The position numbers and the translations under genes are program-made. Below are positions 32,366 through 35,411 of a stretch of DNA of 64,000 bases, piece after piece. The DNA lies in the NCBI GenBank assembly GCA_037305845.1, contig CP147778.1:448001-512000 (forward strand), given 5' to 3'. The DNA is from Candidatus Freyarchaeum deiterrae. GTDB taxonomy: Archaea > Asgardarchaeota > Jordiarchaeia > Jordiarchaeales > Jordiarchaeaceae. The notes under the pieces are model-generated. The model searched no databases. It saw only the letters and a list, made by a program, of their open reading frames with translations, and was not told the origin of the DNA. Position 1 is the stretch's first letter. Each line of letters starts with the position of its first letter.

Positions 32366-35071
32366 TTAGATTGGGAAGGCTGTTTTTATTTCTTCGTAGA
32401 GTTCTGGGAAGCTGTTCAGCCATTCTTTTCTTTCTTTTTTGAGTTGTTGGACCATTTTTTCGACTTGTTCGGTGCTGTAGTATTTTTCTAGTTTGAACTT
32501 GTCCATGTCGACGCCTTCGACTTCTTTGGGTGCGAGTGTTCCGAAGTGGGGTTCGGGTATCCATTCTATGTTGTTTCGAGCTATGCCTCTTATTATGGAG
32601 GCCATTTCTTTTATTTGGATGCGGTCCACTTTTCTTTTGACTATGCTTACGCCTTCCTCGTTTGTTTCTCTTAGTTCTCCTATTCCTCCGGTGTTTACCA
32701 GGTAGCAGTGTACTTTGTCGCCGAATTCTTTTATCATGTCGTAGAACTTGTTTCCTTCTAGTCCTTTGTTGCCTACTATGAAGGGGTTGGTTCCCACTTC
32801 TCTTACTGATTGTCCGGCTCTTTTGGGGTCGCTTCCCGAGGTTTCTATTGATTCTCCCAGCATGAATGCTGCTGCGGCTTGTTCGATTGTGAGTTTGGAT
32901 GCTACGGGTACCACGGTGTTTCTTCTGGTTATTATGAGGAGTATTAGTCCGTCGACTTCGTTTAATGGGGGTAAGTTGACTGTAGGGCTTTTGTATTTTC
33001 CGAAGTCGTCTCTCTGCATTATTCCGCGGCCGTTGCCGGTCAGTATGTCGCTTTCGAATAGTACGTTTCCTTTGTAGTCCACCATCACGTTTTCGAGTAT
33101 AGCGTCGGGTTTGGTTATGGCGTTGTAGATTAGTGGCTGTATTTCCGGGTTTACACCTTCTGTCTTTAGGTAGAATCCTCGCTCAGTGCCTATGGCTGAT
33201 CCGTCGGGTCGTAGTGCGACGAAGTCGTCCTGTACTATTTCTATGCCTTCTCCGTCTGCTTCGTTCAAGTCGTGGGTGTGGCAGCTATGGGTGGTTTTTC
33301 CGGTTGCAGTGAGTCCGAAGATTAGTGTGCTGTAGGTTTTTATTTCGCCAGTTTGGGCGTCTCTGGCTCTGATTTTTTTAGCGCCGGCGTGCAGCCCGAG
33401 CATACCCTGCTGCTTCGCAAACCACATCGCCATTCTCAGGAAGCCTTTCTTAGCTTCACCATAATAATCAGACCCAAGGACGAAGGTTACTCCTATTTCG
33501 GGGAGTACTATTATTTGCCTGTCTTTTTCCTGCCACTCTGGAATATATACTATGAATAGGTGGGGACCATTATAGTCGTCTAGGGGGTCGAAGAGGGTTT
33601 GGTTAACCATGTGAGCTAGCCTAATCATTTCTCCTCTGTGGACAGAGACTAGGAGGGTGCATTTCGGTGTGAAGTCGGGGTTGCCTCCCATAGTGCGTTC
33701 GGTGCATATGAAGGGTGCGCTTTTAATATACTGGAGTATATCTTTCATTGTTTCAGGTAGGTCTTTCATGAGTTCTTTCTGTTTGGGGCTCATTTCGTAC
33801 TGAATCACTTCGGGGCTGCCCGCGGTTATGGTTAAGCCCGCGCTCCTGTTTTTAACTGTGGAGACGAAATTGTAGTTGTTGAAGATTGTTTTAGTCCCGT
33901 ATGCTTCCGCCATCTTTCGGATTTTTTCGTGGGTAAGATGTTTGACGTTGGTTCTCTCGTGGAGATTCTCTACTTCCTGTCTTATCTCTTCCATGTTTAG
34001 CTGGGCGATAATCTCATCAATTTCGGCTTTCGCTCTCTGCTTTTCTTCCTGTAGTGGTTCGAGGTACTCTTTGGAGGTAATTATCCGCCTGACTTCTTTT
34101 TGCATATCTAAAAGAGGGTAGGCTACGTTCAGGTAGTAAACGGCTGCGAATTTGAAAATGTTTTTGTAAAAATCAATCTGGAGTTTTTCACGCTTTTCGC
34201 TACGTATAAGTAGGTAGGGGTTGAAGAAGGGTTGCGGAGAATGGGTGAGTATATCTATAGCTTCTTGTGGATTCAGGCGTTTAGCTATCCTCGCCTCCTT
34301 GCGATTATTCACAAGCAGGAAAATGAGTTTGATACGTGTGGTGTCAAGATACCTTTCATTTCCGCCTATCCACCAAGGATCAAGCATAAAGTGGTTGTCT
34401 TCTTTTTTGCTCTTCTCGTAGAGCGGTTGGAGTCGGGCATAGATTTTTATGAGGTCTCTTTTAAGATAGAATTTTCTCTCGGAGACGGATGTGGATATGC
34501 GTCCTTTCTCTCCTCCGAGCTGTTCGACGTATATTATATCGTCGGAGTGTATTCGCGCACGCTCCAGCTCTAGGAGTAGAAACGCGTTGGTGCTGACGCC
34601 TCTTCCTGTTTCTCCCATTATGGCTATTCCTTCCCCGTTGATGTCCACTAGGCTTCCCCTGATAAAATTTAAACGCTCCTGCTCCTCACTGACATCAGCC
34701 ACGATGCCCAGAGCTAGGGCTCGTACAAATTCGTAATTGTCAACATTAAAAAGTATACCAGTTTTGGTTTCAGAGTTATAGTATATTCCGGGGTTTTCAT
34801 CGTAAACTCCCGTGGCTGCGTATATCACCCCGTGGGGGCGCAGATTTCGTTCTATAGACGCGGGAAACCAGTTCTCTCTCCAAAAATCATCCAGATGGCT
34901 TTCATTAGTTCTCAGCTGTATAATGTAGCCGTTTATGTTAGCGTTCCAAACATAGAGAGAATCATATCCCAGATATCTCTCCGCCTTTTGAACCAAGTCT
35001 TCCCTTGTTTCCCGAGAGATTCCTACGTCTATATTGCCTTCCTTTTTCGGAATCTTTTCTAATTCGCCCAT
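32366..35071 (-). CDS. pckA: Phosphoenolpyruvate carboxykinase (ATP) with an extra N-terminal degenerate HPr-kinase/PEPCK-like domain
   Basis: C-terminal YYGEAKKG, LGLHAG, FGLTATGKTT, QDD, ERGFYLKT, NGR, NPF, LVNTG. N-terminal domain has GETGRGVST and IHSDD. Confidence 0.85.
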   Translation of the reverse strand: MGELEKIPKKEGNIDVGISRETREDLVQKAERYLGYDSLYVWNANINGYIIQLRTNESHLDDFWRENWFPASIERNLRPHGVIYAATGVYDENPGIYYNSETKTGILFNVDNYEFVRALALGIVADVSEEQERLNFIRGSLVDINGEGIAIMGETGRGVSTNAFLLLELERARIHSDDIIYVEQLGGEKGRISTSVSERKFYLKRDLIKIYARLQPLYEKSKKEDNHFMLDPWWIGGNERYLDTTRIKLIFLLVNNRKEARIAKRLNPQEAIDILTHSPQPFFNPYLLIRSEKREKLQIDFYKNIFKFAAVYYLNVAYPLLDMQKEVRRIITSKEYLEPLQEEKQRAKAEIDEIIAQLNMEEIRQEVENLHERTNVKHLTHEKIRKMAEAYGTKTIFNNYNFVSTVKNRSAGLTITAGSPEVIQYEMSPKQKELMKDLPETMKDILQYIKSAPFICTERTMGGNPDFTPKCTLLVSVHRGEMIRLAHMVNQTLFDPLDDYNGPHLFIVYIPEWQEKDRQIIVLPEIGVTFVLGSDYYGEAKKGFLRMAMWFAKQQGMLGLHAGAKKIRARDAQTGEIKTYSTLIFGLTATGKTTHSCHTHDLNEADGEGIEIVQDDFVALRPDGSAIGTERGFYLKTEGVNPEIQPLIYNAITKPDAILENVMVDYKGNVLFESDILTGNGRGIMQRDDFGKYKSPTVNLPPLNEVDGLILLIITRRNTVVPVASKLTIEQAAAAFMLGESIETSGSDPKRAGQSVREVGTNPFIVGNKGLEGNKFYDMIKEFGDKVHCYLVNTGGIGELRETNEEGVSIVKRKVDRIQIKEMASIIRGIARNNIEWIPEPHFGTLAPKEVEGVDMDKFKLEKYYSTEQVEKMVQQLKKERKEWLNSFPELYEEIKTAFPI

Positions 35072-35262: not shown

Positions 35263-35278
35263 GAGAGGAAATTTATAA
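35263..35278 (+). promoter_or_regulatory. BRE-TATA promoter of the ncRNA
   Basis: Purine-rich GAGAGGAAA then TTTATAA (35272-35278), placing the start site at about 35301, the first base of the terminal stem. Confidence 0.65.
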
Positions 35279-35300: not shown

Positions 35301-35411
35301 AGTCCTTGCAAAAATTTATCCAGTGACCTTTTGGGGATGATGCTGGAAGAGCCGTATGACCGCTTTCGGGATGATTTGCAAAAAGGACTCCTCACATAGA
35401 GGGTTTCTTTT
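35301..35411 (+). ncRNA. BHB-flanked, circularly permuted box C/D guide RNA precursor
   Basis: AGTCCT/AGGACT stem, TGCA/TGCA central helix and two AAA bulges. Inside: D(GTGA)-hairpin-C(ATGATGC)-12-nt guide TGGAAGAGCCGT-D'(ATGA)-hairpin-C'(ATGATTT). Followed by CCTC/GAGG hairpin and T tract. Confidence 0.75.

What the first reader, a model, noticed from the sequence alone, without database searches (positions are those of the whole stretch)
35344..35359. Guide predicts 2'-O-methylation at the site equivalent to the eukaryotic U49/SNORD49 target
Seen: GGAAGAGCCG (35345-35354) lies one base upstream of D' (ATGA). Established: many archaeal 23S and eukaryotic 28S rRNAs read GAUGUCGGCUCUUCC in the PTC, giving a perfect 10-bp duplex. 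The D+5 rule points to the C in GUCGG[C]UCUUCC (E. coli C2510 equivalent). From memory and needing verification, this is the position methylated in human 28S under SNORD49/U49 guidance, with a very similar guide. Inference: a possible ancestral archaeal counterpart of a specific eukaryotic snoRNA, or convergence on the same site. The host rRNA is not in this window.
Basis: partly seen in the sequence, partly recalled or inferred. Interest (0 to 1): 0.7.

Follow-up and report, generated by a model that had tools for sequence, protein, structure and literature searches.

The report
Rearranged Asgard rRNA methylation guide RNA
This is a real small guide RNA of an Asgard archaeon that should direct sugar methylation of one cytidine beside the ribosome's catalytic centre, the same cytidine that human SNORD49 marks; the target is old and shared with non-Asgard archaea, so it is no special link to eukaryotes, but the RNA's parts are in an unusual rotated order.

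Summary
Observation confirmed. The guide (35345-35354) pairs 10/10 with the host 23S rRNA, and D+5 falls on E. coli C2510, which corresponds to human Cm4456 (SNORD49A/B). The match alone is weak (shuffle p 0.016; a loose genome scan does not beat controls). Conservation makes the case: invariant guide and boxes in four congeneric genomes and three metagenome contigs. The host is almost certainly Freyarchaeum. The same guide sits in ordinary C/D RNAs of Hodarchaeales, Njordarchaeales and Lokiarchaeota, but also of Methanopyri and Hydrothermarchaeota, and the site was already predicted for M. kandleri sR7 and I. hospitalis sR473. The SNORD49 model does not score this RNA. So the site is an old archaeal target; descent of SNORD49 from that family is plausible but not shown, and this copy is derived. 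The unusual part is the layout: D-hairpin-C-guide-D-hairpin-C inside a covarying terminal stem with a bulge-helix-bulge-like closure, and a dead second spacer; splicing to a 70-nt circle is possible but untested. This scan found the same site before on other DNA (e1-5454551, e1-5394904); the splicing idea came from e1-5513603.

The parts
35272..35277 (+). TATA-like box, 29 nt before the start of the terminal stem; own promoter (inferred)
   Evidence: a TTTAT core is kept at this distance in all homologues
35301..35306 (+). 5' strand of outer terminal helix (pairs with 35384-35389)
   Evidence: 100% paired in 7 sequences, 2 pairs with double-sided changes
35307..35313 (+). 5' strand of the 4-bp central helix (TGCA) and three A's; possible 5' bulge of a BHB/BHL motif; part of a 9-nt direct repeat also present at the 3' end
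   Evidence: invariant; in the naked-RNA fold two of the A's pair with the C box instead
35314..35322 (+). remnant of the second spacer; variable in length and sequence, no conserved rRNA target; can pair with the downstream C box
35323..35326 (+). D-type box GTGA of K-turn 1
   Evidence: invariant in all homologues
35327..35335 (+). short hairpin closing K-turn 1
   Evidence: CC/GG stem kept, loop varies
35336..35342 (+). C-type box (G)ATGATG of K-turn 1
35345..35354 (+). antisense guide, 10 bp to 23S C2507-C2516 (E. coli numbers); G35351 is D+5 and faces C2510
   Evidence: invariant in 8 sequences
35356..35359 (+). D-type box ATGA of K-turn 2; its first A pairs with U35376 of the C box, replacing the usual C-G pair
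35360..35369 (+). short hairpin closing K-turn 2
   Evidence: CC/GG kept, loop varies
35370..35376 (+). C-type box GATGATT of K-turn 2
35377..35389 (+). 3' strand: central helix TGCA, 3-nt A bulge, outer helix
   Evidence: 3-nt bulge kept in all 8 sequences; pairs
35390..35411 (+). small conserved hairpin followed by a T- or A-rich run; terminator-like, and with 35375-35389 it resembles the genus CRISPR repeat

Best explanation
A stand-alone, single-guide box C/D sRNA gene of Freyarchaeum (Asgard, Jordarchaeia). It is transcribed from its own promoter as about 90-110 nt. Two D-hairpin-C modules fold into K-turns that bind L7Ae, then Nop5 and fibrillarin. The 10-nt guide pairs with the 5' strand of 23S helix 90 and fibrillarin adds a 2'-O-methyl group to C2510. 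The second spacer carries no guide and is interrupted by the RNA's own ends, which pair as a terminal stem. The gene is a circular permutation of an old archaeal family that targets C2510, usually together with G2446. Shown: sequence, boxes, target, conservation, covarying stem, presence of the proteins. Inferred: transcription, RNP assembly, methylation, and the history.
For: Target and register. Invariant guide and boxes with variable loops and flanks in 4 congeneric genomes and 3 further contigs, same neighbourhood. All 17 proposed pairs hold in 7 sequences, with compensatory changes in the outer helix. Fibrillarin, Nop5 and L7Ae genes present. Same guide in same register in canonical intergenic C/D RNAs of Hodarchaeales (18 of 22 genomes, reversed-pattern control 0 of 22), Njordarchaeales (5 of 7, control 0) and scattered others. 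M. kandleri sR7, an RNA-seq-detected sRNA, has the same two targets as the Hodarchaeales RNA.
Against: Boxes deviate from consensus and no Rfam family reaches its cut-off. The first two guide bases can pair back on 35320-35321, which competes with the target duplex (8-bp duplex about -13 kcal/mol). The homologues are close kin, so covariation counts are not independent. One congeneric genome (97% complete) and the sister family show no copy. No paper in the library reports a measured methyl group at C2510 in any archaeon.
Confidence: 0.85

Rival explanations
1. As above, but the linear transcript is only a precursor: the tRNA splicing endonuclease cuts the terminal motif and RtcB ligates a 70-nt circle (35313-35382) in which the boxes regain the normal cyclic order with a 16-nt empty spacer.
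For: 4-bp invariant helix with a 3-nt bulge on the 3' strand and three A's on the 5' strand in all homologues, outer helix covarying. An inner helix of 7 pairs is possible in the window RNA. Two endonuclease subunit genes of 205 and 213 aa and RtcB are present, and over 90% of this lineage's tRNA genes have introns (PMC11291895). K-turn 2 needs U35375-U35376, which would free the 5' A's (inference).
Against: In the naked-RNA ensemble the 5' A's pair with the C box at 0.8-0.9 and the enforced BHB is 3 kcal/mol above the minimum. The inner helix is broken in four of seven homologues. Relaxed BHB shapes arise often by chance (86 hits; bioRxiv 10.64898/2026.10.13.758758). Both K-turns can form in the linear RNA, so a circle is not needed.
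Confidence: 0.4
2. The RNA belongs to the very lineage that gave rise to eukaryotic SNORD49/U49 (orthology through the Asgard ancestor of eukaryotes).
For: U49 is conserved in human, plants and a green alga and is placed near the eukaryotic root. The guide is kept in Hodarchaeales and Njordarchaeales. In Njordarchaeales it precedes D' as in SNORD49, and the SNORD49 model's best hit in 4 of 5 such genomes is that RNA. The Hodarchaeales partner site G2446 equals human Gm4392 (snR38/SNORD1) by the same offset.
Against: Scores are 12-21 bits against a cut-off of 37 and are explained by boxes plus guide; a generic Pyrococcus C/D model scores about the same. No hit in this genome. The site is shared with non-Asgard archaea. 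At least 4% of positions in this region are methylated in human, so coincidences are expected among many guides. The second guide differs between Asgard lineages (G2446, G2251, about 2576-2577), so modules shuffle.
Confidence: 0.35
3. The RNA binds helix 90 as a folding chaperone for the large subunit and does not methylate, because its second half is empty and its boxes are imperfect.
For: Archaeal guides with a conserved mismatch at the target base exist (PMC6009581); the second spacer has no target.
Against: D+5 is a Watson-Crick G-C pair in every homologue and the one-base gap is fixed; the register is the same as in eukaryotes, where the methyl group is measured.
Confidence: 0.1
4. Chance match in an intergenic region.
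For: Loose box-plus-complement scans do not beat controls.
Against: Invariant core in diverged intergenic DNA, double K-turn layout found once among intergenic sequences, covarying stem, same guide in other orders.
Confidence: 0.02

Closest known systems
Methanopyrus kandleri C/D box sRNA sR7 (Dennis et al. 2015, PMC4644070)
   Same: Guide before a D box in the same register, predicted target at alignment column 2784, which is E. coli C2510.
   Different: sR7 has the normal C-D'-C'-D order and a second guide for G2446; the window RNA is permuted and has one guide.
Ignicoccus hospitalis sR473 (same paper)
   Same: Predicted to target the same C2510 column.
   Different: Normal order; second guide aims elsewhere (column 2693).
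Eukaryotic SNORD49/U49 (Rfam RF00277, clan CL00062)
   Same: Same target base (human Cm4456, Arabidopsis Cm2880); guide identical at 9 of 10 positions with the same one-base gap.
   Different: No model hit in this genome; normal box order; the consensus guide has a mismatch opposite U2511; no likeness outside boxes and guide.
Permuted, BHB-circularised SRP RNA of Thermoproteus (Plagens et al. 2015, PMC4731332; as summarised in PMC7994747)
   Same: A rearranged gene whose paired ends can form a splicing-endonuclease motif.
   Different: Different RNA class, and there the circle is shown and required. [quoted passage not shown]
Circularly permuted C/D families sR56/sR57 of Pyrobaculum (Lui et al. 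2018, PMC6009581)
   Same: Permutation of a C/D gene is known.
   Different: There the two guides swap places and the box order stays C-D'-C'-D; here the break lies inside a spacer, so each D precedes its C.

Membership tests
Archaeal box C/D sRNA | Two C/D box pairs able to form K-turns | tested here: met
   Two D-hairpin-C modules with invariant GA dinucleotides
Archaeal box C/D sRNA | 10-12 nt guide complementary to rRNA with a Watson-Crick pair at D+5 | tested here: met
Archaeal box C/D sRNA | Linear order C, D', C', D between the ends | tested here: not met
   Order is D, C, D, C; no D box follows the last C box. The cyclic order is normal.
Archaeal box C/D sRNA | Second guide (usual, not obligatory) | tested here: not met
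   Spacer varies and has no shared target
Archaeal box C/D sRNA | L7Ae, Nop5 and fibrillarin encoded by the host | tested here: met
Archaeal box C/D sRNA | Expressed, bound by L7Ae, directs methylation | not testable with these tools
SNORD49 (RF00277) | Score above the gathering cut-off of 37 bits | tested here: not met
   No hit at E up to 10 in this genome; 12-21 bits for canonical Asgard relatives
SNORD49 (RF00277) | Guides the C2510-equivalent base | tested here: met
   (prediction, not measurement)
SNORD49 (RF00277) | Likeness outside boxes and guide that shows common descent | tested here: inconclusive
   The 3' element of the consensus resembles several different second guides equally
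sR7-type double guide (G2446 plus C2510) | Guide for C2510 | tested here: met
sR7-type double guide (G2446 plus C2510) | Guide for G2446 | tested here: not met
   Not in this RNA and no such guide found by pattern in the genus
BHB-spliced permuted RNAs | 4-bp helix flanked by two 3-nt bulges and outer helices | tested here: inconclusive
   Outer helix, central helix and 3' bulge conserved; 5' bulge and inner helix not favoured or not conserved
BHB-spliced permuted RNAs | Splicing endonuclease and RtcB in the host | tested here: met
BHB-spliced permuted RNAs | Circular junction reads | not testable with these tools

The most novel reading that the evidence does not exclude
A free-standing, permuted C/D guide gene that behaves like an intron without a host RNA: the tRNA splicing machinery cuts its paired ends and ligates a 70-nt circular guide for C2510. 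I found no described case of this for a stand-alone C/D gene. In the boldest form (about 0.1) the flanks are a recycled CRISPR repeat into which the guide core was inserted.
Probability: 0.35. Interest if true: 0.68.

Novelty: new variant of a known kind. Interest (0 to 1): 0.45.

Why it matters
The target claim adds one more site to the list of rRNA methylations shared by archaea and eukaryotes. Hoeppner and Poole (PMC3511168) could not tie any early eukaryotic snoRNA to an archaeal RNA; a guide kept in Hodarchaeales and Njordarchaeales makes the inheritance of the U49 site testable by a wider survey, though not provable from sequence. The layout matters more: if the RNA works with each D box before its C box, or is spliced into a circle by the tRNA machinery, it shows a route to C/D RNA maturation and permutation that differs from the ligase-dependent circles of Thermococcales, and it means standard C/D finders miss such genes. 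It can be tested in vitro with purified archaeal proteins.

Tried and rejected
Rfam at gathering and relaxed thresholds on the window: nothing relevant. SNORD49, snR38 and generic Pyrococcus C/D models on whole genomes: nothing above cut-off. H/ACA reading: rejected, the ACA lies in a downstream loop and is not kept in all homologues. Idea that the empty spacer is a relic G2446 guide: only 6 pairs and not conserved, left as unproven. Idea that the SNORD49 3' element is a decayed G2446 guide, which would support orthology: rejected as evidence, because it fits G2446, G2251 and the plant U49 second site about equally. Genome-wide catalogue of other host guides: not above control, so no enrichment test was possible. 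Search for other permuted or BHB-flanked C/D genes in the host and 40 relatives: none; weak model hits were CRISPR arrays. Supplements of PMC6009581 and PMC5027482 are not held.

Full report
Host. The window lies in a single-contig genome of 3,576,204 bases. Its size fits the complete 3.58-Mbp Freyarchaeia genome of PMC11291895, and the gene next to a close homologue of this RNA is labelled Freyarchaeota.

Observation. The ten guide bases lie at 35345-35354, followed by T35355 and ATGA at 35356-35359. The one 23S gene holds the exact complement. The fifth base before the box is G35351; it faces host C2646, which aligns to C2510 of E. coli K-12 rrlB. No better site exists in host 23S or 16S. 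Human Cm4456 (4426 in old numbers) is assigned to SNORD49A/B (PMC9941101). A cross-species table equates human Um4498 with E. coli Um2552 and human Cm4456 with Arabidopsis Cm2880 and Ostreococcus Cm2711, with no yeast or archaeal entry (PMC11542601); the offset of 1946 puts 4456 at 2510. The Rfam SNORD49 consensus guide equals the window guide at nine of ten bases, with the same one-base gap.

Is it more than chance? By itself, barely: shuffled spacers reach ten pairs over D+5 in 1.6% of trials, and a loose scan of the genome gives 41 candidates against 34-42 with scrambled targets. Conservation decides. The element is found in four of five congeneric genomes (E below 1e-23) and in three further metagenome contigs, beside the same PEPCK gene where that could be read. 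Guide and boxes are invariant while loops and flanks drift. Fibrillarin, Nop5 and L7Ae are encoded.

Anatomy. A TATA-like box lies 29 nt before 35301. The RNA then reads: 5' stem strand, short spacer, D-type box (35323-26), hairpin, C-type box (35336-42), 13-nt spacer with the guide, D-type box (35356-59), hairpin, C-type box (35370-76), 3' stem strand (to 35389), and a small hairpin with a T-rich tail. Each D precedes its C, so both K-turns are of the internal, hairpin-closed kind, and the ends fall inside the second spacer. This is a circular permutation of the usual layout and the only intergenic case in the genome under a strict pattern. All 17 proposed pairs hold in seven sequences, with compensatory changes in the outer helix (kin are not independent). 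The second spacer varies and has no shared target. The ends form a 6-bp outer helix, a 3-nt A bulge on the 3' strand and an invariant 4-bp helix, followed on the 5' strand by three A's. In favour: the motif is conserved, the host has two endonuclease subunits and RtcB and very many tRNA introns. Against: in the naked fold the 5' A's pair with the C box and the enforced motif costs 3 kcal/mol, the inner helix fails in four of seven homologues, and relaxed motifs are common by chance. Cutting and ligation would give a 70-nt circle. I put this at about 0.4.

Distribution of the guide. A box-guide-box pattern over 400 Asgard genomes hit 18 of 22 genomes of one family and 5 of 7 of another, with no control hits in either. 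These are intergenic C/D RNAs in normal order from Hodarchaeales and Njordarchaeales; single cases occur in two Lokiarchaeota-labelled lineages and two unnamed families. Most other hits lie in long reading frames and are chance. In Hodarchaeales the partner guide aims at G2446, which by the same offset is human Gm4392, the snR38/SNORD1 site. In Njordarchaeales it mostly aims at G2251. Heimdallarchaeaceae keep only the G2446 guide, Freyarchaeum only the C2510 guide. Outside Asgard, the G2446-plus-C2510 pair occurs in four Methanopyri MAGs and a Hydrothermarchaeota MAG. Dennis et al. 2015 already list M. kandleri sR7 and I. hospitalis sR473 at alignment column 2784, which is C2510.

Relation to SNORD49. 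The SNORD49 model has no hit in this genome at E up to 10. On the normal-order relatives it gives 12-21 bits against a cut-off of 37, no more than boxes plus guide explain; a generic Pyrococcus model scores alike. Two guides for one conserved base must look alike, so the likeness carries no independent signal. At least 7 of 171 positions in this region are methylated in human, so some overlap is expected. Hoeppner and Poole met the same limit for sR12 and SNORD43. What can be said: the site was probably guided in archaea before eukaryotes arose, the guide survives in the Asgard orders closest to eukaryotes (their position is from my own knowledge), and inheritance is plausible (about 0.35) but not shown. 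The window RNA is a derived form, not a model of the ancestor.

Mechanism, steps marked. Shown in sequence: boxes, guide, target, stem, protein genes. From established C/D biology (PMC7994747): L7Ae binds K-turns, Nop5 and fibrillarin follow, and the base paired to D+5 is methylated. Inferred: that this happens with the permuted RNA. The guide's first two bases can pair back on 35320-21, but the full duplex (about -20 kcal/mol) should displace them. No read data could be examined, and no paper held reports a measured methyl group at this base in an archaeon.

Side observation. A model built from the RNA returned CRISPR arrays as its next hits. The 3' flank (35375-35403) matches the first 29 bases of a congener's repeat with the joint best score among 52,552 prefiltered genome sites, and ranks 226th against the host's own repeat; with the full repeat the rank falls to about 200 or worse. 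Both ends start like the repeat and lie 67-70 nt apart, near the array period of 72-79. The query length was chosen after the fact, so this is a lead only.

Verdict. Real C/D guide for C2510, confidence 0.85. The site equivalence is true but already implied for non-Asgard archaea, so the eukaryote link earns little. The rotated, possibly spliced layout is a new variant. Interest 0.45.

Noticed in passing
window 35305-35314 and 35375-35403: Both ends of the RNA begin like the genus CRISPR repeat, and the 3' flank keeps a repeat-like hairpin; removing the C/D core would leave one repeat-like unit. Possible origin by insertion into a repeat, or 3' end formation by Cas6, or chance.
   Followed up: partly
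L034-L051 (Hodarchaeales), about 1460-1525: Canonical double-guide C/D RNA for G2446 and C2510, lying directly upstream of a Trm112-family gene.
   Followed up: yes
L059-L063 (Njordarchaeales): C2510 guide before D', second guide in register for the P-loop G2251 in four genomes and for G2446 in one.
   Followed up: partly
L210-L219 (Heimdallarchaeaceae), about 1490-1560: C/D RNA that keeps a G2446 guide and has a variable second spacer: the mirror image of the window RNA.
   Followed up: partly
L031, L032 about 1495-1550: C2510 guide paired with a second guide near G2576-A2577, a region methylated in yeast and human; register not settled.
   Followed up: no
L085 and L086-L088, 23S helix 89 loop: Insertions of about 46 and 339 nt at the same place in the 23S genes of two Asgard families, probably rRNA introns.
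   Followed up: no
L080 about 1591-1615: The 23S gene binned with Hodarchaeales genome G116 differs at the G2509 position, giving a mismatch to that genome's guide; may be real or a binning error. The 23S piece in G102 (L091) looks bacterial.
   Followed up: no
L026 (host 16S, G000 1804896-1806517): The 16S match spans 1622 nt against a 1478-position model, which suggests an insertion or intron.
   Followed up: no
window 32366-35071, minus strand: The divergent neighbour is a 901-aa PEPCK with a long N-terminal extension; already noted by the scan as e1-5513609.
   Followed up: no
G003 and family f2 genomes: No copy of the RNA or of its guide was found in one 97%-complete congener or in five genomes of the sister family.
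   Followed up: partly
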